From Naegleria gruberi (Eukaryota), in NCBI GenBank assembly GCA_000004985.1, contig GG738899.1: a stretch of 64,000 nt of DNA. One strand, written 5' to 3'. Positions 19,114-41,732 of the stretch are shown here, in pieces; the stretch's first letter is position 1; every line of letters starts with the position of its first letter. The notes below the pieces were generated by a model, which saw nothing but the letters and a program-made list of their open reading frames with translations, was not told the origin of the DNA and did no database searches. The position numbers and the translations under genes are program-made.

Positions 19114-19876
19114 TTTTTTTGAGTGATGGGTTTGTTGGGTGCTTTTCAAATTTGTTTGAATATTTTTATGTTGCGATGAGGCTACTGATTTGGTAATTGA
19201 TTGTTGTGGAAGGTTTTTGAAAATCAACTGTTTCGAATAATTATGTTGTAAAGGTTCACCAATTCAATAATTAAAATTCGATTAGGTAAAAACCTTCATT
19301 CTTGCCAACCACCTTAATAGCAACTTGAAGCAATATCCAATGATTCAAGTGGTAGTCACAAATCAATTAACAAAACATTCAAATATACCAACAATTTAAA
19401 ATACAAGTGTCAAATCCTTTGGATGTGAACAAGCCAGAAGCTTCAGCTGTGGCAATAACTTGTCCAGAACTATATTCTACATGATGACCTCTCCCCAATC
19501 ATTGTGCCCTTAAAACGAGGAATTGCCTATTTAGAGAATGGAAATGAAAATACCCTTTAATAAAACGGATTGGGGACCAGTGGGAATCGAACCCACGGCC
19601 TCTCGCACCCAAAGCGAGAATCATACCACTAGACCATGGTCCCTTACACATGGTTTTTCAAAAACACTTTCAGTAGGCAAGCCTTATTATCATTTGCCTT
19701 AATTCAAAGGACGTCTCTTCTTTCAGTCTTGACAAATTGCTCATATTTTGATTGACTGCTACAACAGCCACAAATGGTAATACTACGGCAAGTGTTTCAA
19801 CCTCAAAAAAAAATGTGCGTTCCTACTAGACATATGAAATAAGTAAAAAAATCCAACAATAACTCGAGCAAAGATA
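19114..19876. promoter_or_regulatory. divergent intergenic region between the GH gene (minus) and the UGT gene (plus), containing tRNA-Pro
   Basis: 763 bp between the divergent ATGs at 19113 and 19877. A-rich stretches sit immediately 5' of both ATGs. The tRNA gene with its internal Pol III A/B boxes is embedded here. Confidence 0.3.
19572..19643 (-). tRNA. tRNA-Pro (anticodon UGG)
   Basis: The minus-strand reading is GGGACCA TG GTCT AGTGGTA TGATT CTCGC TTTGGGT GCGAG AGGCC GTGGG TTCGATT CCCAC TGGTCCC C. This gives a 7-bp acceptor, a D-arm, an anticodon stem with loop TTTGGGT (UGG), and a T-arm GTGGG/CCCAC with loop TTCGATT. Discriminator is C. A T-run lies downstream on the minus strand. Confidence 0.9.
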
Positions 19877-34200: not shown

Positions 34201-36099
34201 CGAATTATTTCCAATAAGGAAGGAACAATTCGAACAATTGCTGATATCACAGCAGCCACCGACATGATTTCCACACAAAACAATACTCTCTACATCTCCA
34301 CCAATGAACAGATCATCAAGGCAACTCCACGCTGTGAAACAGGATTCCAATTAGTGAAACAAAACACTGAATGTGTTCCAATTTGTTATGGAATGTTTGA
34401 GAGTGGAATGGTTTGTTCAAGTCGTGGTGAATGCACTTCTCCAGATAATTGCAAATGTTGGAATGGATTATACACGGGAAAGGAATGTGAAATTCCAATT
34501 TGTTTTGGGATCTCTGCAAATGATCCTAATGTATGCTCGTATGGAAATGGAACTTGCATGATCAATAACAAGTGTCAATGTTTGGATGGATTTTATGGAG
34601 AAACTTGTCAATTTCCAATTTGTTTTTCTAAAATAATTGGAGAATCATGTGGTGGACCAAGCAGAGGAGCTTGCACCAATAAGGATGTTTGTAAATGTGG
34701 TCAATTTTACACTGGCGAACAATGCCAATACCGAATGTGTCAAGGAAAGAGTGAAATAGACAAATCTGTATGTAGTGGACATGGAAAATGCCAAGCTAAT
34801 GGAAGATGTGAATGTGACACTCTTTATATTGGAGATGATTGTTCCAATATGTCACAAATTTATGGATTGAGCATTGCTTCTGCACTCATTATTGTTATCC
34901 TCACTACAATGTTGGTAGTTTCTCTCATTTTGGGAGTAATCGTCTATAGGAAGAATAGGCGAGAGAAGAAAATAATCGAAACTGAACTCTCACTTGATGA
35001 AAGATTATTATCCTCAACTGATATATATGAAATGTCTCTATCTCACGGTTCATTAGCATCGCATGCTACTGTATCAACTGAAGATGCTTCTTCCTTCGTG
35101 ATTCCACTTCACAAGATTGGAATGGATAAACCAATTAAGGTTAGTTTCAAATTAATTATTCTATTAACAATTGAATCTTGATAAATTAATTTAACACAGA
35201 GACTTGGAGAAGGTGGAATGGGAAGTGTTTTTATGACCAAATTTAATGGAATGACAGTTGCTGTCAAGGTCTTTGATTTGAATAACTTGAATATTTCAGA
35301 GGAGGATTTCAAGAATGAAGCAATAGTATTAAGCAAACTTCGTCATCCAAATATTATTAACTTTTATGGAATTTCTACATCACCAACTAAACGATACATT
35401 ATCATGGAATGTTTGGATCAGAGCTTGGAGAAGGTAATTGCCAAATTGGAAATGAAACAATTATCTTTCACACTCGAACAAAAATTGAGAATGTTGCTGA
35501 ATATTGCTAATGGAATTGAATATTTGCATTTTTTGAAACCGAGGAGGATTATTCATCGCGATTTGAAAACAGCTAATATTCTACTAGACTCGAATGGAAA
35601 CTGCAAGGTTTGTGACTTTGGGTTGAGTAAATCCATTTCACAAGCAACTGTTTCCGCACTTACTAATCAATTGGGTACACATTTTTATATGGCTCCAGAA
35701 TTATTCGATATCAAACCGATTGATCCGACCTATGCCACATCAGTTGATATCTACAGTTTTTCTATTATCATGTGGCAATTACTATTCGAAATTAAGGATC
35801 CCTATCTCAGTAAATCTCCAGAAATATTGAGAAAGCTTGGAACTACCTCAATTCTTGAACAAGTAACTTCCTACCAATTGACCAAAATGATTTGTGAGAA
35901 CAACCACAGACCAAGCATTCCTTTCAATTCCATTGAATCATGCCATGAATGGTGTTTCGAATACATGCCTTCCTCCCAAGACGAATCTCCTCAAATCTTT
36001 GCACTTTCCCAATTAATCCAAGAATGTTGGCAAACTGATCCAAAACTCCGACCAAACATTGAACAAGTTATCCAACACCTTCAATCCCTACTCACCTAA
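31213..36099 (+). CDS. receptor-like protein kinase, paralog of 9142-14057: signal peptide, N-terminal domain, NHL repeats, EGF repeats, TM, TKL kinase (5 exons)
   Basis: Start at ATG 31213 (MMIRTMTLNFLCIALPLVALLFISS). Exons are 31213-32758, 32804-32884, 32932-33357, 33404-35139 and 35200-36099. Introns are 45-60 nt, GTTTGT/GTAAGT/GTATGT/GTTAGT to AG. Splicing restores NHL motifs (YIADTDNHRI, GYSGGDGGLA, YVADSFNHRI, IYIADSYNNRIR). There are 5-6 EGF repeats and the TM IASALIIVILTTMLVVSLILGVIVY. Kinase motifs are LGEGGMGSVF, AVK, HRDLKTANILLD, DFG and YMAPE. Joins track ORFs 31168, 32943, 33502 and 35218. Confidence 0.75.
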
Positions 36100-36387
36100 G
36101 GAGAAGGTAAAAACCCATATCACATCATCCTACTATCTTCTTTCTCTAATTTTTTGTAAACTCTCTTCCAATTCCTCAATAAATCCACACGAAAAAATTT
36201 GGCAATGAAAATTTTCAAGTCCATTTTTGAGCAGCTGATGATAAAAATTCTTTTTGAAAAAAATTCAAATATTCGTTTCGCTAGGAAGGTGCTGTTTAGA
36301 GTTTCATCATCCCGCGTTTTTTATTTACCGTTACGAACATTATAAAACCATCATACCAATATATATATAAATTTATTAAATACAAAG

Positions 36388-38146
36388 ATGATGATGATGA
36401 ATCAAAAGAGAATATCTGCCGTTAGATCATTGATGAAGAATGTTAATGGCAAGAATTCCATCATCATGATGAATAAGTGTTCCAATATGATGTTGATGAA
36501 GAATAATTATCACTCGAGTTTGTATCAATCGATGAAGGTTGTTCATCCGGTTGAGATTGCTGCTACACCAGAGAATAAGGATACTTCACTTCCAACTGCT
36601 GAGGAAATTCAATTTGTTGCTCCTATTGAAGATGGTGGTTTGTCGTCGACTGCTCATGTTTCCTTCTATGATATTGAAGAAGCCTTTGCAAGAATTAGTA
36701 AGTTTTGTATATATTGTTCATCAATTCTCATCATATCATGTAATTTATACATTGTTTATACTTCTTTCCATCATCATGTTGCTAATTTAAATCTTCTTCA
36801 TCATCTTTCATTTATAGAACCACTTTTACCTCCAACCCCACTGCAAGAATCAGCTGTTTTAACACAAGAAATATTCGGACAACAAAAGAACGTTTTGCAT
36901 CCTAGAAAGGTCTTTTTGAAATATGAAAATAAGCACATGACTGGAAGTTTTAAGGAAAGAGGAGCTATTAACAAGTTAGCTGCTTTGGATACAGAACAAA
37001 GAAAGAGAGGTGTTGTTGCCTCATCTGCTGGTAACCAGTAAGTATATTATCTAAATTCATTTTAGTTAAATTTCAATAGTGCTCAAGGTATGTTGAAAAT
37101 GCATTTTGTGGAGTTTTTAACTGTTTTTTAACTGTTTGATCAATATTTGGAATACAGCTGTTGCTTATCATGCTATGAGACTTGGAATTAAGGCTACTAT
37201 TTGTATGCCTGTGAATAGTCCACTTTCTAAAGTGGCCGGAACAAAGAGATATGGAGCTGAAGTAGTATTATTCGGAGAAAGTGTCGATGATGCCTATCAA
37301 GAAGCTTTGAGAATTAAGGAGGCAGAAAATAGAGTTCTCGTCCATCCATTCAACGATGACGCCATTATTGCTGGCCAAGGAACATTAGGTTTGGAACTTT
37401 TGGAACAATCACCATATATTGACACAATCGTGTGTCCAATTGGTGGAGGTGGTCTTATCAGTGGTGTTGCCATTGCTTGTAAGACTGTTAATCCAAAGAT
37501 TAAGGTTTATGGTGTTCAAACTGAAAATGTTCCTTCCATGGTTACTGCCAAAAAGAATAGAAAATCCACAACTGTTCCTTTCCATGCTACCATTGCTGAT
37601 GGTATTGCTGTTAGAAGAATTGGTGATTTGACATTCCCAATTATTGATCAATTTGTCGATGATATTGTTACTGTCACGGAAAGTGAAATTGCTCACGCTG
37701 TTCTCGTCCTTTTGGAAAGAGAAAAGACTCTCGTAGAAGGAGCTGGTGCTACTCCAGTTGCTGCCCTTTTGAGTGGAAAGTTAGAGGAAGTGACAAAGAC
37801 AAGCAGTGGTTCTCATCGTGTCTGTTGTATACTTTCTGGAGGTAATATGGATGTTGGTACTGTTAGAGATATTATCGATAGAGGTTTGGCACAAAGTGGT
37901 CGTTTAGTTCGTTTGAGAACTGTCGTTCCTGACGTTCCAGGTCAATTAGCTAAGGTTTTGACACTTTTGGGAGAACTTAAAGTCAACATTAGAGAAGTTG
38001 ACCACGAAAGAAATTACAATGTTCCTGTTGGTTATACTGGTACTGTTATTACATGCCAAACAAGAGGTTTTGAACACATTGAAAATGTCAAGAATAGTCT
38101 CATTCAACACGGTTTCAGTTTTGAAATGATTCAGTGTCATGATTAA
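36388..38146 (+). CDS. threonine dehydratase / serine-threonine ammonia-lyase (PLP fold type II) with C-terminal ACT-like regulatory domain, 4 exons including an 8-nt microexon
   Basis: Exons are 36388-36697, 36818-37037, 37080-37087 (tgctcaag) and 37158-38146. Introns are 120, 42 and 70 nt. The PLP-lysine motif is GSFKERGA. Only the microexon model restores the conserved SSAGNHAQAVAYHAMRLGIKATICMP (SAGNHAQGVA) block, and every single-intron model breaks the frame. GGGGLISG glycine-rich loop is present. The C-terminal segment of about 90 aa is ACT-like. N-terminal MMMMNQKRISAVRSLMK may be a targeting peptide. Confidence 0.7.
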
Positions 38147-38179
38147 ATTCTTTTCAACATTACTATCATTTAAAAGATA

Positions 38180-38258
38180 TTGGAAATATCGGACTTGAAC
38201 CGATGACCTACTATTGTAATTGCCAATAGCTTGCTCTCCCAAACTAAGCTAATTTCCA
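38180..38258 (-). tRNA. tRNA-like gene with perfect acceptor, D and T arms but an over-long anticodon arm (anticodon unresolved; possible very short intron or pseudogene)
   Basis: The minus strand reads TGGAAAT TA GCTT AGTTTGGGA GAGC A AGCTATTGGCAATTACAATAGT AGGTC ATCGG TTCAAGT CCGAT ATTTCCA A, then TATCTTTT (T-run terminator). The 7-bp acceptor and 5-bp T stem pair perfectly. The D-arm and variable loop are identical in pattern to tRNA-Phe-type genes. The region between position 26 and the variable loop is 22 nt instead of 17. It can form a 7-bp stem, GCTATTG/CAATAGT, with loop GCAATTA. Confidence 0.5.
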
Positions 38259-38358
38259 AATATCACTTCTTAATCCCTCAATGGTCTGGAGTAATTAATA
38301 TTTTAAAATAAGGTAATTTATGGTATGGAGCAATTCATATTTTCATTGGACATCAGTT

Positions 38359-41300
38359 TTATTTTTCTGTATTGTGATAAATACCATTCCAATCTCTTGG
38401 TGGATGAACAGCGTACTCTCTACATCTTTCTCTCAATGTTCTCGAAGGGCCATCTTCTGGTCGAATCTTTAGACATTCCTCAAAGAATAGTAAAGCTTGA
38501 GCAAAATCTCCAGATGCATACATTTCCAACGCTCTTTCGTATATTTGTCTGAGTCTCATTATTTCATCGTTTGGAGTTGGGAGAGGTCTACTACTCTTTG
38601 TATCTTTTGAGGGTTCTTTAATTGAATTGTTGGTTCTTCTTCCAAGCAACTCATATATAACACAACCAACACTCTTACCCTTCACACTGATTTGGTCAAT
38701 CTTTCTCACCTCCAATTGTTCGGCAACATAAGGTTGGAGGAATGTATCTTCAGACAACAGAATGCTGGTTCCATAAAACTTGTTTGTTCCTTCCAAACGA
38801 GAAGCCAAATTTACAGAATCACCAATAATGGTAAAGTTTAGTCTCCAAATACTTCCAATATTACCAACAACACAGGACCCACTATGTAACCCAATACGAC
38901 ACCTAAACAGTGGCTTTGCTTCCCTTTGCCATTTTCTTCTAAGGTCAGACATTCTTTGTTGACATCTCAAGGCAGCTCTACATCCTCTTAAACCAGAAAT
39001 TGCTGATGTGTCAGGAGCTCCCCAGAAGGCCATTACTATTTCAAAATTTTTGTTACATCCTGAAATCGTTAAACTTACCTGAATCACCAATATACTTATC
39101 CAAAGTTCCATTCTCGTAAATAATTTCTTCTGTCAACACATGAAAATATTCAGAAACATGTTGAATCAACATTTCAGGATCCAATTCTTCACTAATTGTT
39201 GTAAAATTTTCAATATCTGAGAAAAATATTGTCAAGTTACCAACAAGCCTACCACCCAAAGTAATTTCATTACCATTCTTCAACATGTCTCTCAGTAGTT
39301 CATTTGGAACAAACTTTTTAAATGATCGAACAGTTGTTTTCATCTTATCAAAGGCAATAGAAAGTTCATGAATTTCAGTTGTGGTGTTGTAAACTTTTGA
39401 AGTTTTTGGAGCTTCTAAATTTGAGAGAGCCTTACTTTCTCTTGAGAAGAATCTCAATGGTTTGGACACAGCTTGAGAGAATATGCAACTAAAAAGTACA
39501 CCAAAAGCAAGGCACACAAATGCGATACCAATTGTTAGTCCCAACATGAGCATAACATTACTGACAAAGTCACCATCTGGAGCAACTACGACAACAATCC
39601 AATGCATGTTCAAATCGACTGTTCTTTTTACTACTCCATGGGCAACAACATAGTCTTCACCACTAAAGGAAAAGGAATTCAAATGTGGATTATACTCAGC
39701 TGTGGACTTATTCTTATAGCCAGAGTAATCACTTGGTAAGATGTTGAGTAATACGTGTTTCAGTAAAGGATCTGAAACTTCGTGTGCTTCAGCAATTCTG
39801 ATATCGAAAGTGGAACTTTCATCAAAAACTGCTATTGCTGATGAATTCTTGAACCCAAGAACACGCTTATGGAGAACGGGTGCACCGCTATTGCTCTCTC
39901 TAGTGAAAAATTCAACAATAGCTACAAAAGAATTTGGAGAAACATAGAACGATCTAACAAAATCTGACAAGTATTTGATGTTAACATTGATACTGGTCAT
40001 TCCTAGAAAAGTTGAATCATATGGAGAATAAACGTTAGATTGGTAGCAGGTATAGATTCTTTCCTCAATTGACGATCCCTGCCATTGAACATCCATTGGA
40101 ACGAGGGCCTCTTTGTGTTTGAGAGCTAATTTGTAGAACTCTCCTTGAGTTGGGTCCCATTTATCCATTAATTCTGAATCAGTGACAGTTCTCAATTTTC
40201 CATATTTCGAAAAGTAGTAAAACGACTGAAATGTTTCATCATTTGCCTGCTTCATCAGAAAAACTCTTTGCATATTGTCGAATTGCCCCTCATCTTCGTT
40301 TGAAACTGGAAGTACTAGTTCATAACTTTCATCAACATACAAATAATCTGTATTTGGGCAAGTAAAATCCACCAAGAATATCTTTCCTATATATTGATGA
40401 TGGCTTACAGCTAGTAACCTTAAAATATTTACATAATTTTCATAAGAGTAAAAGTTACTAGTTGAAGAATTAGTATTAAGGCCACCCTCATTCATAAAAT
40501 AACTCCTATAGATGGCATGTCTCTGTTGTCTTGTTGCCTCCATACATATCCACAAAAAGTCGGAAACATAAGACTCTGCTCTGAAATATGACTGTGCCAT
40601 TACTTGATTTTTAACATCATTGGAAGCAAGAATTGAAAATCCAATAGAAATTCCTATTAATGAAAGAACTGGTATCACTAACATTACTAGCATCATGGTG
40701 ATCAATAAACATCTGAATGAGCAAATATAAAAATGTGGCCTCAATTCAACAGAAGTTGGTCTCTTCTCCTCTCCGGTAATACTTTGTGGCGTAACTATAG
40801 AATCGTTATCAAAAAGCTTTTTTGTACTAGTTTTAAAGCTTGATGCCAACGACTCTTGCTCTGCCAAATTGTGGAAGGAAATTTCTCGAGAAGGAGCAAC
40901 ATAATAAAGTGAGTTGGAACGAGCAAGTTTTTCTTGAGGTTGAATTTGGAGCATACTATTTCTCCTAGAATTTGGATTGGATGATAACTTAGAATTTGGG
41001 GATTTGGTGGAGGACATTGTGTTTGTACTTTTAACATTTGGAATAAAAACACTGGAAGAAGGTGGAGCTTGTACTTGTTGAACTGGAGTTGAATTTGGTA
41101 TACTAGTGATGGACTCTAAACTTTGTTCATTGTTGGCCGTCTTGGTCATCACATAAGTATTTAAATTATGAACTGTGGTTGGGACAGACTCTTGGTCCGA
41201 CAAATCACGAAAGAAGAATTCCTTCACTGGTGGAGCATAATAGATGGGATTATTGGCGTAAACTGGTGTTCTATCAGGAAGAGAGGGTGGGATTTGCATA

Positions 41301-41422
41301 ATACTATTCCTTCTCGAACTTGGGTTCGATACAGGATATTTAGAAATAAGATTGGGTAGTGATTCATTACTACAAGATTCAATGAGTGGTGTTACTTTGT
41401 TGCTGTGCATTGGATTCGTCAT
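38359..41422 (-). CDS. sensor-type class III nucleotidyl (adenylyl/guanylyl) cyclase, ACG-like: cytosolic low-complexity N-term, TM, extracellular sensor domain, TM, cyclase domain, C-terminal TPR-like segment (2 exons)
   Basis: Exons on the minus strand are 41422-39079 and 39035-38359. The intron is 39036-39078 (43 nt, GTAAGT..ATAG). Splicing joins ...LDKYIGDS|VMAFWGAPD across the conserved class III metal-binding motif. Further motifs are RIGLHSGSCVVGNIGS and IGDSVNLASRLEGTNK. TMs are LITMMLVMLVIPVLSLIGISIGFSIL and MLMLGLTIGIAFVCLAFGVLFSCIF, flanking an extracellular region of about 330 aa. The C-terminal YERALEMYASGDFAQALLFFEECLKIRPEDGPSRTL resembles the tail of protist sensor cyclases. 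ATG at 41420-41422. Confidence 0.7.
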
Positions 41423-41732
41423 TTAAGGTTGCGCTTAATGTTGTTGAAGTATGTTGGTAGTAATTAATAGCCAATGATGAAGATGATGATGAACAGCGTT
41501 ATCAATAATTATTAAGGAAAAAAAATGAAGAGAATGGCCTTATCCAACTGCGCTTATTTTTTTTAAAGTACGTTAAATAACCAACAAACGCGTTAATGCA
41601 TCAGATATAGCTCGAGCCTTTTCAGGCGATTAAGTCCCGAAATTGAATCTATAAGTTGGCTTTAAAGTGAGTTTGTTTTTTAAACCTCAATACCTTAATA
41701 CAAACTCTAATTATGATTTTCATCAATATCAA

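What the first reader, a model, noticed from the sequence alone, without database searches (positions are those of the whole stretch)
38180..38258. tRNA-like gene with canonical acceptor, D and T arms and Pol III terminator but a 22-nt anticodon region
The arms and the TATCTTTT terminator suggest a transcribed Pol III gene. Yet 5 extra nucleotides sit between position 26 and the variable loop. That is far shorter than known eukaryotic tRNA introns, and the alternative 7-bp-stem fold gives a loop (GCAATTA) lacking U33. Possible anticodons are GGC, AAU, UAC or ACA, depending on the fold. This could be a pseudogene or a tRNA with an unusually short intron. It could also be a tRNA-derived regulatory RNA or SINE remnant. 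It sits 34 bp past the stop of the threonine dehydratase gene.
Basis: seen in the sequence. Interest (0 to 1): 0.5.

Follow-up and report, generated by a model that had tools for sequence, protein, structure and literature searches.

The report
Odd tRNA-like gene in Naegleria
A single-copy, alanine-tRNA-like gene in the amoeba Naegleria gruberi has every tRNA feature intact except the anticodon arm, which is 5-6 bases too long; it is most likely a tRNA gene that is still transcribed but cannot decode, so a curiosity rather than a discovery.

Summary
On the minus strand at 38258->38180 lies a 79-nt tRNA-like gene (Rfam tRNA 44.2 bits against a cut-off of 29). Its acceptor, D and T arms are perfect, the A and B boxes are intact, and a T4 terminator follows the 3' end. 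The anticodon region is 22 nt instead of 17. The window is Naegleria gruberi. An independent assembly carries the identical 79 nt. The gene is absent at both flanking genes' orthologous loci in N. fowleri, N. lovaniensis and Willaertia. ARAGORN misses it by default; in intron mode it calls tRNA-Ala(GGC) with a 6-nt intron. The body is closest to bacterial-type tRNA-Ala. However, the universal alanine identity pair G3.U70 is G3-C70 here, and eukaryotes normally do not use GGC. Removing the 6 nt leaves only a 4-bp stem with an A.A mismatch. The extra bases also lock the arm into a 7-bp hairpin (95% of the predicted ensemble) that buries the 3' splice site. GC is 39%, against 58-60% for ordinary Naegleria tRNAs. 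Best reading: a lineage-specific tRNA-derived Pol III gene with a disabled anticodon arm, in effect a pseudogene. A spliced micro-intron tRNA is not excluded. Six nt is the lower bound of predicted eukaryotic tRNA introns, not far below it. Interest is low.

The parts
38180..38258 (-). 79-nt tRNA-like gene (5' end at 38258, discriminator A73 at 38180)
   Evidence: Rfam RF00005 44.2 bits, model positions 1-71; ARAGORN -i call; identical in the independent contigs L004/L005
38252..38258 (-). Acceptor stem 5' strand UGGAAAU. It pairs with AUUUCCA at 38181-38187: 7/7 Watson-Crick pairs, with U1-A72 and G3-C70 (no G3.U70)
   Evidence: Sequence; Rfam alignment; comparison with bacterial tRNA-Ala
38239..38251 (-). 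A-box region / D arm start (UAGCUUAGUUUGG; D stem GCUU/GAGC spans 38233-38249)
   Evidence: Sequence matches the tRNA positions 8-19 consensus in the Rfam alignment
38210..38231 (-). Enlarged 22-nt anticodon region AGCUAUUGGCAAUUACAAUAGU. The 7-bp hairpin is GCUAUUG (38224-38230) / CAAUAGU (38210-38216) with loop GCAAUUA (38217-38223)
   Evidence: hairpin -7.0 kcal/mol, 95% of the arm's ensemble
38222..38224 (-). GGC, the anticodon under the canonical-intron model (U32 U33 GGC A37 is in register from the 5' side)
   Evidence: ARAGORN -i; column-for-column alignment to bacterial tRNA-Ala(GGC) through A37
38215..38221 (-). The 6 extra nucleotides: AAUUAC (38216-38221, ARAGORN's placement) or equivalently AUUACA (38215-38220, exactly 37/38)
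38191..38201 (-). B box GGUUCAAGUCC within the T arm (AUCGG UUCAAGU CCGAU, 38188-38204)
   Evidence: Rfam alignment
38172..38175 (-). T4 run, a putative Pol III terminator, starting 5 nt after the 3' end
   Evidence: Sequence; the same placement downstream of Naegleria tRNA-Pro, -Met and -Gly genes
36388..38146 (+). Neighbour: threonine dehydratase gene (two ORF blocks, 36388-37041 and 37136-38146, separated by a short intron), convergent with the tRNA-like gene
   Evidence: Pfam PALP + ACT; homologs in N. fowleri and N. lovaniensis
38359..41422 (-). Neighbour: cyclase/TPR gene on the same strand; its stop codon is 100 nt upstream of the tRNA-like 5' end
   Evidence: Pfam Guanylate_cyc + TPR; 100% identity to an N. 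gruberi predicted protein

Best explanation
This is a lineage-specific tRNA-derived RNA polymerase III gene of Naegleria gruberi. It descends from an alanine-type (GGC-anticodon, bacterial/organelle-like, AT-rich) class I tRNA, and its anticodon arm has been disabled by a 6-nt insertion just after the anticodon together with a one-base register loss on the 3' side of the stem. The internal A and B boxes, the terminator and the whole acceptor/D/T body are intact. It is therefore probably still transcribed, trimmed by RNase P and RNase Z and given a CCA tail (inferred). The product folds with a 7-bp anticodon helix and a loop (GCAAUUA) that lacks U33. Even if the 6 nt were removed, it would carry an alanine anticodon without the G3.U70 pair that alanyl-tRNA synthetase requires. 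Functionally it is a tRNA pseudogene / tRNA-like RNA and not a decoder. Shown here: sequence anatomy, tRNA-model match, isotype affinity of the body, absence from orthologous loci, predicted fold. Inferred: transcription, end processing, lack of aminoacylation, and the mutational history.
For: Strong tRNA-model match with only the anticodon arm failing. ARAGORN finds nothing in standard mode, and its other modes give mutually inconsistent calls: Ala-GGC with intron, mt-type Val-UAC, undetermined. Exhaustive enumeration shows that no single excision restores a 5-bp stem plus a canonical 7-nt loop; the best options give 4 bp plus an A27.A43 mismatch and a 4-nt variable loop. The candidate spliced products Ala-GGC, Val-UAC and Val-GAC score about equally (110-112.4) and below genuine Naegleria tRNAs (116.7-121.5). 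The body is Ala-like. The best full-length phage matches are tRNA-Ala. Among 413 unselected bystander tRNAs the 8 nearest are all Ala. Yet G3-C70 replaces G3.U70. The arm's 7-bp hairpin holds 95% of the predicted ensemble, and the canonical pre-tRNA conformer with the 3' splice site in a bulge is 9.4 kcal/mol worse. The gene is absent next to the dehydratase in N. fowleri, N. lovaniensis and a third Naegleria contig, and absent next to the cyclase in N. lovaniensis and Willaertia. The review literature treats short insertions in single eukaryotic tRNA gene copies as presumed pseudogenes (PMC4090602). From established knowledge (Marck and Grosjean-type surveys): eukaryotes decode GCY with A34/I34 and lack tRNA-Ala(GGC).
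Against: Everything outside the anticodon arm is flawless: all 16 stem pairs, all tertiary-interaction bases, both promoter boxes and the terminator. That is not what long neutral decay looks like. Relative to bacterial tRNA-Ala, the AT-rich acceptor stem differs by paired changes (U1-A72, A4-U69, A5-U68), which implies a history under selection for pairing. The insertion sits at or next to the canonical intron position, and 6 nt is within the published range of predicted introns. No expression data could be consulted. Absence from syntenic positions is weak evidence, because tRNA genes relocate often. Identity between the two N. gruberi-type assemblies is uninformative: there are 2 SNPs in 133 flanking nt, so about 1.2 would be expected in 79 nt, and P(0) is about 0.3.
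Confidence: 0.55

Rival explanations
1. A working tRNA gene with a 6-nt micro-intron at the canonical 37/38 position. The Sen endonuclease, measuring from the tRNA body, removes AUUACA and ligation yields a 73-nt tRNA with anticodon GGC.
For: ARAGORN in intron mode makes exactly this call (score 105.0; 112.4 once the intron is removed). The 5' side is in perfect register with bacterial tRNA-Ala(GGC) through A37. Predicted canonical introns in eukaryotes go down to 6 nt, the enzyme uses a ruler mechanism, and anticodon-intron pairing is not required (PMC4090602). A U32-A(intron -3) pair followed by a 3-nt bulge can be drawn. Promoter and terminator are intact.
Against: The product has G3-C70 instead of G3.U70, so AlaRS should not charge it. 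GGC is not a normal eukaryotic anticodon. The stem left behind has 4 bp plus an A.A mismatch and shortens the AGGUC variable loop to GGUC. The splice-competent conformer is 9.4 kcal/mol less stable than the 7-bp hairpin that buries the 3' splice site. GC is 39%, against 58-60% for genuine Naegleria tRNAs. No orthologue was seen.
Confidence: 0.12
2. A valine tRNA (anticodon UAC) with a 6-nt insertion at a non-canonical site (31/32 to 33/34) that is removed by an unknown mechanism, as in nucleomorph tRNAs.
For: Removing UUGGCA or GGCAAU leaves AUUACAA or UUUACAA, good loops with U33, A35, C36 and A37. A73 and G20 fit valine identity (established knowledge for E. coli and yeast tRNA-Val). Among tRNAs sharing the GGAAAU/AUUUCC acceptor stem, Val is the commonest isotype (38 of 85), and the single best-scoring neighbour is a Val-UAC. 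Excision of 3-nt non-canonical introns is documented in nucleomorphs.
Against: No bulge-helix-bulge motif can be formed by a 6-nt insert, and no such splicing is known in Discoba. That acceptor search was forced to G3-C70, so it could not return Ala. With unselected tRNAs, Val ranks fourth, behind Ala, Ile and Pro. The stem and variable-loop defects are the same as in the Ala model.
Confidence: 0.04
3. A tRNA-like RNA or DNA element kept for a non-decoding job. Possibilities: an RNase P/Z cleavage site that forms the 3' end of the cyclase mRNA transcribed through it (mascRNA-style), a TFIIIC/Pol III boundary between two convergent genes only 212 bp apart, or a source of small tRNA-derived RNAs.
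For: It lies on the same strand as the cyclase gene, 100 nt past its stop codon. The tRNA body needed for RNase P/Z recognition and the A/B boxes needed for TFIIIC are perfectly preserved, while the part needed only for decoding is not.
Against: The cyclase orthologues of N. lovaniensis and Willaertia have no tRNA-like element downstream, so any such role is recent. There is no covariation or expression evidence. A young pseudogene gives the same pattern.
Confidence: 0.13
4. A question of origin that is compatible with the best explanation: the gene is a piece of foreign or organellar DNA, either a nuclear copy of a mitochondrial tRNA gene or a tRNA acquired from a bacterium, phage or giant virus. 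It did not arise as a duplicate of a Naegleria cytosolic tRNA gene.
For: GC is 39%, against 58-60% for three ordinary Naegleria tRNAs. The D-loop GGGAGAGC, the AGGUC variable loop, the T arm and the GGC anticodon match bacterial/phage tRNA-Ala. Naegleria mtDNA is 75-78% A+T and encodes 20 tRNAs (PMC5421314, PMC4202320). The adjacent dehydratase gene itself looks like an old bacterial acquisition.
Against: No close source was found. The best body identity to any collected tRNA is about 84% (score 39 of 57), and strict-pattern scans of metagenome, viral and bacterial/archaeal collections found no near-identical sequence. Mitochondria usually carry Ala-UGC, not GGC. The Naegleria mitochondrial genome could not be fetched with these tools.
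Confidence: 0.3
5. One member of a dispersed tRNA-derived repeat (SINE-like) family in N. gruberi, which has an unusually high count of 924 predicted tDNAs.
For: The high tDNA count reported for N. gruberi (PMC2888827); the lineage-specific presence at this site.
Against: The similarity stops at the tRNA borders. There is no tRNA-unrelated tail, no poly(A) or target-site duplication evident in the 212-bp intergenic space, and no second copy in the window or in any fetched Naegleria or Willaertia locus.
Confidence: 0.06

Closest known systems
Eukaryotic tRNA pseudogenes / aberrant tRNA gene copies with short insertions
   Same: A single gene copy with a few extra nucleotides in one arm and an otherwise tRNA-like sequence. 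tRNA finders give it reduced or inconsistent calls, and its identity elements disagree with its anticodon.
   Different: The rest of the molecule shows no decay at all, and its base composition (39% GC) is unlike that of the host's normal tRNAs, so it is not a recently degraded copy of a standard cytosolic gene.
Canonical intron-containing eukaryotic tRNA genes (intron at 37/38, predicted lengths 6-133 nt)
   Same: The insertion is placed immediately 3' of A37. Its length equals the published minimum. The intron's 3' end pairs with anticodon-loop bases.
   Different: After removal the anticodon stem has only 4 pairs and the variable loop is shortened. The predicted structure buries the 3' splice site in a helix. 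The resulting Ala-GGC tRNA lacks G3.U70.
Nucleomorph (Guillardia theta, chlorarachniophyte) and Cyanidioschyzon tRNA genes with 3-24-nt non-canonical introns
   Same: A very short insert inside a tRNA gene of a eukaryote. Excision of such inserts has been demonstrated there without a known mechanism.
   Different: In those genomes many essential, single-copy tRNAs carry such inserts. Here there is one gene in a free-living heterolobosean nucleus, no sign that it is the only gene for its anticodon, and no BHB motif.
Bacterial/phage tRNA-Ala(GGC/UGC)
   Same: U8-A26 region including GGGAGAGC, loop UUGGCA, variable loop AGGUC, T arm AUCGG-UUCAAGU-CCGAU, A73 (alignment A3).
   Different: U1-A72, A4-U69 and A5-U68 in place of GC pairs; G3-C70 in place of G3.U70; an extra U in the D loop; U13 in place of C13; the 6-nt insertion.
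tRNA-like 3'-end processing elements (MALAT1 mascRNA type)
   Same: A tRNA-like fold with an aberrant anticodon arm lying downstream of, and on the same strand as, a Pol II gene.
   Different: This one has its own complete Pol III promoter boxes and terminator, and there is no evidence of read-through transcription or of conservation in orthologous genes.

Membership tests
tRNA (Rfam RF00005) | Covariance-model score at or above the gathering threshold | tested here: met
   44.2 bits against 29, full model length
tRNA (Rfam RF00005) | Cloverleaf with 7-bp acceptor, 3-4-bp D and 5-bp T stems and conserved tertiary bases | tested here: met
   All pairs standard; U8, A14, G18G19, A21, G53, U54U55C56, A58 and C61 present
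tRNA (Rfam RF00005) | 5-bp anticodon stem with a 7-nt loop carrying U33 and a purine at 37 | tested here: not met
   22-nt region; the 7-bp stem has loop GCAAUUA (C at position 33). The Rfam model marks all five stem pairs as non-standard
Intron-containing eukaryotic tRNA gene | Insert located one nucleotide 3' of the anticodon (37/38) | tested here: inconclusive
   ARAGORN -i places a 6-nt intron there, but excisions at 30/31 to 39/40 give equally good products
Intron-containing eukaryotic tRNA gene | Removal of the insert restores a canonical anticodon arm | tested here: not met
   The best result is 4 bp plus an A27.A43 mismatch, with the variable loop cut to 4 nt. ARAGORN scores 110-112 against 117-121 for genuine genes
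Intron-containing eukaryotic tRNA gene | Splice sites accessible (single-stranded; 3' site in a bulge next to the anticodon-intron pair) | tested here: not met
   Predicted fold only: the 7-bp hairpin holds 95% of the ensemble, and the bulge conformer is +2.4 against -7.0 kcal/mol
Intron-containing eukaryotic tRNA gene | Spliced mature RNA exists | not testable with these tools
   No RNA-seq or small-RNA data accessible
tRNA-Ala | G3.U70 wobble pair in the acceptor stem | tested here: not met
   G3-C70
tRNA-Ala | NGC anticodon and A73 | tested here: inconclusive
   A73 is present. GGC is in register from the 5' side only, and only if the 6 nt are removed
tRNA-Ala | Body sequence closest to tRNA-Ala | tested here: met
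   The top 8 of 413 unselected tRNAs are Ala; mean top-5 score is Ala 33.2, Ile 27.4, Pro 24.0, Val 21.8;
RNA polymerase III type 2 gene | Internal A box and B box and a downstream T-run | tested here: met
   UAGCUUAGUUUGG and GGUUCAAGUCC; T4 starting 5 nt downstream, as in the Naegleria Pro, Met and Gly genes. Transcription itself was not tested
SINE / dispersed tRNA-derived repeat | Multiple dispersed copies with a shared tRNA-unrelated region | tested here: inconclusive
   No other copy in the 64-kb window or in about 116 kb of Naegleria/Willaertia loci; the whole genome was not searchable
Nuclear copy of mitochondrial DNA (NUMT) | Sequence identity to the species' mitochondrial genome beyond generic tRNA similarity | not testable with these tools
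   N. gruberi mtDNA could not be fetched. Only composition (39% GC) hints at this origin

The most novel reading that the evidence does not exclude
The gene is functional. It would be a nuclear-encoded, organelle- or bacterial-type tRNA whose 6-nt insert is removed as the shortest canonical tRNA intron experimentally seen in a free-living eukaryote. Its alanine identity would be created post-transcriptionally, for example by C70-to-U editing restoring G3.U70 after import into mitochondria, where Naegleria is known to perform C-to-U editing.
Probability: 0.04. Interest if true: 0.65.

Novelty: new member of a known kind. Interest (0 to 1): 0.2.

Why it matters
If it is a disabled tRNA gene, as I think most likely, it matters only for annotation. 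It should be flagged as a pseudogene or tRNA-like gene and not counted as tRNA-Ala(GGC) in the Naegleria gruberi tRNA set. It also shows that intron-tolerant tRNA finders can rescue broken genes by inventing 6-nt introns. If the micro-intron were really spliced, it would test how small a substrate the eukaryotic tRNA splicing endonuclease can handle when the 3' site is base-paired. It would also raise the question of how a GGC tRNA lacking G3.U70 is charged.

Tried and rejected
(1) Synteny test on both sides. I fetched dehydratase orthologues (N. fowleri L001, N. lovaniensis L002, metagenomic Naegleria L003) and cyclase orthologues (N. lovaniensis L006, Willaertia L007). None has the tRNA-like gene, and gene order differs, so no orthologue was available for covariation analysis.

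(2) Strict pattern (D arm + B box) against metagenome and viral contigs: 0 hits.

(3) The first bacterial/archaeal scan used the wrong gap, N{20,30}, which excludes normal 17-nt arms. It only shows that no prokaryotic genome in that collection has this body with an enlarged arm.

(4) The acceptor-stem-anchored scan gave more than 120 metagenome and 40 viral loci. Isotypes were mixed, Val being commonest, and none was closely related. Because that pattern forces G3-C70 it could not return Ala, so I rejected it as an isotype test and used unselected bystander tRNAs instead.

(5) Tandem-duplication origin (CAAUUA/CAAUAG): only 4 of 6 bases repeat, so this is not convincing.

(6) Is the 3-bp helix extension a sign of selection? 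About 25% of random AT-rich 6-mers would give it, so I rejected it as evidence.

(7) Selenocysteine, suppressor and 8-9-nt-loop readings do not fit the sequence.

(8) I considered a search with the six-frame translation of the gene to find copies hidden under spurious ORFs, and did not run it. Only one 25-aa frame is open, and no ORF was called across the gene even on L004.

(9) The Naegleria mitochondrial genome paper (PMC3594069) is not held. Other mitochondrial genome papers give tRNA counts but no sequences.

Full report
WHAT IS THERE. The Rfam tRNA model (RF00005) matches window 38258->38180 at 44.2 bits (gathering score 29; E=3.8e-6 for the whole window against all families). It covers model positions 1-71, and only the anticodon arm fails to align. 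The RNA reads UGGAAAU-UA-GCUU-AGUUUGGGA-GAGC-A-[AGCUAUUGGCAAUUACAAUAGU]-AGGUC-AUCGG-UUCAAGU-CCGAU-AUUUCCA-A. The acceptor stem (7 bp), D stem (4 bp, one G.U) and T stem (5 bp) are all paired, and the conserved tertiary bases are present. The A box (UAGCUUAGUUUGG) and B box (GGUUCAAGUCC) are good. A T4 run begins 5 nt after the discriminator base, the same arrangement as downstream of three ordinary Naegleria tRNA genes. Between A26 and the AGGUC variable loop lie 22 nt where 17 are expected. The dehydratase stop codon ends at 38146, 34 bp from the tRNA 3' end.

ORGANISM AND CONTEXT. The neighbouring proteins identify the window as Naegleria gruberi. The cyclase gene (38359-41422, minus strand) is 100% identical to an NCBI N. 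gruberi predicted protein. The threonine dehydratase is 83% and 86% identical to the N. fowleri and N. lovaniensis proteins. The tRNA-like gene sits in a 212-bp space between the convergent 3' ends of the dehydratase (+) and the cyclase (-). It is 100 nt past the cyclase stop codon, on the same strand. An independent metagenome assembly of a near-identical strain (L004/L005) carries the same 79 nt without a single change and has two SNPs in the flanks. This excludes an assembly artefact. It says nothing about constraint, because about 1.2 differences would be expected in 79 nt at the flank rate.

IS IT CONSERVED OR REPEATED? Neither is seen. Nothing tRNA-like lies downstream of the dehydratase in N. 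fowleri (L001), N. lovaniensis (L002) or a third Naegleria contig (L003). Nothing tRNA-like lies downstream of the cyclase orthologue in N. lovaniensis (L006) or Willaertia magna (L007). Gene order differs on both sides. BLAST of the 79 nt and of the whole intergenic region finds no other copy in the window or in any fetched Naegleria or Willaertia locus. The whole N. gruberi genome, for which 924 tDNAs have been reported (PMC2888827), could not be searched.

WHAT tRNA FINDERS SAY. ARAGORN in its standard mode finds nothing. In intron mode it calls tRNA-Ala(GGC) with a 6-nt intron (aattac) at the canonical site. In metazoan-mitochondrial mode it calls Val(UAC). At a relaxed threshold it reports an undetermined type. 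I enumerated every single excision of 5 or 6 nt. None restores a 5-bp stem with a canonical loop. The best solutions all use the stem AGCUA/UAGUA (4 pairs plus an A27.A43 mismatch), borrow A44 into the stem so that the variable loop shrinks to GGUC, and yield GGC, UAC or GAC depending on where the 6 nt are cut out. When presented as intron-less genes, these products score about equally in ARAGORN (110.2-112.4), below genuine Naegleria tRNAs (116.7-121.5).

WHAT KIND OF tRNA WAS IT? The best full-length matches in phage records are annotated tRNA-Ala. A scan of one genome per bacterial and archaeal species for the D-loop GGGAGAGC plus this exact T arm returned 11 loci. In the alignment the Naegleria gene matches them column for column from U8 through A37, including U32-U33-GGC-A37, and the extra bases follow. 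That scan fixed the T arm, so I also ranked 413 bystander tRNAs that matched none of my patterns. The eight nearest are all tRNA-Ala, and the mean top-5 scores are Ala 33.2, Ile 27.4, Pro 24.0 and Val 21.8. A scan anchored on the acceptor stem gave mixed isotypes with Val commonest, but it forced G3-C70 and so could not return Ala. The body is therefore alanine-type, in agreement with the GGC read from the 5' register. No collected tRNA is a close relative: the best scores 39 of a possible 57, about 84% identity outside the arm. The source remains unknown.

WHY IT PROBABLY DOES NOT DECODE. First, the universal alanine identity element G3.U70 is G3-C70 here, so the only anticodon reachable by canonical splicing belongs to a synthetase that should reject the molecule. 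Second, from established comparative surveys of tRNA sets, eukaryotes read GCY codons with A34/I34 and do not keep tRNA-Ala(GGC). Third, the arm is predicted to fold into a 7-bp hairpin (GCUAUUG/CAAUAGU, loop GCAAUUA) at -7.0 kcal/mol, which is 95% of the ensemble. The canonical pre-tRNA arrangement, with a U32-intron A pair and the 3' splice site in a 3-nt bulge, is 9.4 kcal/mol worse. The whole-molecule cloverleaf with that hairpin (-19.8 kcal/mol) is within 1 kcal/mol of the MFE. Fourth, the valine reading (A73, G20, A35, C36 all present) would need excision at a non-canonical site. A 6-nt insert cannot form a bulge-helix-bulge motif, and no such activity is known in this lineage.

WHAT ARGUES THE OTHER WAY. 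Six nucleotides is not 'far shorter than known'. The review PMC4090602 gives 6-133 nt for predicted canonical introns. It notes that the endonuclease uses a ruler mechanism, that anticodon-intron pairing is dispensable, and that 3-nt nucleomorph introns are really excised. It also says that many predictions are unverified and that short insertions in single gene copies are usually taken as pseudogenes. The rest of the molecule is undamaged. Its AT-rich stems differ from bacterial tRNA-Ala by paired changes (U1-A72, A4-U69, A5-U68), which indicates an ancestry under selection for pairing. At 39% GC, against 58-60% for Naegleria tRNA-Pro, -Met and -Gly, it is not a decayed copy of a normal cytosolic gene. 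An organellar, bacterial or viral origin is plausible, but I could not demonstrate it: strict scans of metagenome, viral and prokaryotic collections gave no near-identical sequence, and the Naegleria mitochondrial genome was out of reach. The neat 3-bp extension of the helix is not evidence of selection, since a quarter of random AT-rich 6-mers would produce it.

VERDICT. The most likely account (about 0.55) is a lineage-specific, alanine-type tRNA-derived Pol III gene whose anticodon arm was disabled by a local 6-nt insertion and register shift. It is probably still transcribed and end-processed into a tRNA-like RNA that cannot be used in translation. The alternatives are a genuinely spliced 6-nt canonical intron (about 0.12), a tRNA-like element with a non-decoding role such as 3'-end formation of the co-oriented cyclase transcript or a Pol III boundary (about 0.13), a non-canonically spliced Val tRNA (about 0.04), and a SINE-family member (about 0.06). 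A foreign or organellar origin (about 0.3) is compatible with any of these. This is a new example of a known kind of object, and interest is low. A single tRNA-seq or RT-PCR experiment plus a whole-genome and mitochondrial-genome BLAST would settle it.

Noticed in passing
L101 3160-3237 (minus strand): This metagenome contig carries a bacterial rRNA operon (16S - tRNA-Ile - tRNA-Ala - x - 23S - 5S). In it, a 78-nt tRNA-like sequence (Rfam tRNA 33.6 bits) sits between tRNA-Ala and the 23S gene. It has U1 and the same GGAAAU/AUUUCC acceptor stem as the Naegleria gene, and it also has an over-long, untypable middle region. ARAGORN gives no call at default settings.
   Followed up: partly
window 36388-38146 (+): Outside Heterolobosea, the best matches to the Naegleria threonine dehydratase (PALP + ACT, one short intron at about 37042-37135) are Deltaproteobacteria/Myxococcota proteins at 52-55% identity. 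It is shared with Acrasis kona. This looks like an old bacterial acquisition.
   Followed up: no
L002 10001-16959: The N. lovaniensis annotation appears to split the dehydratase into a 399-aa PALP model and a separate 100-aa ACT model, and to fuse an ADA2-like gene with a CitMHS transporter into one 1432-aa model. N. fowleri has these as separate 582-aa and 827-aa genes.
   Followed up: no
window ~35000-41500 versus L001, L002, L006, L007: Gene order around both the dehydratase and the cyclase differs completely between N. gruberi and N. fowleri, N. lovaniensis and Willaertia. The tRNA-like gene sits exactly at the junction of the two non-syntenic blocks.
   Followed up: partly
window 19572-19643 (minus strand): An ordinary tRNA-Pro(UGG), 62.4 bits, 60% GC. 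It is the only other tRNA in the window and a useful internal control for what a normal Naegleria tRNA gene looks like.
   Followed up: yes
window 38359-41422 (minus strand): The cyclase gene is split into two overlapping ORFs in different frames (38359-39111 and 39053-41422), which implies an intron near 39053-39111. The guanylate-cyclase domain is divided between them, and a TPR repeat follows it.
   Followed up: no
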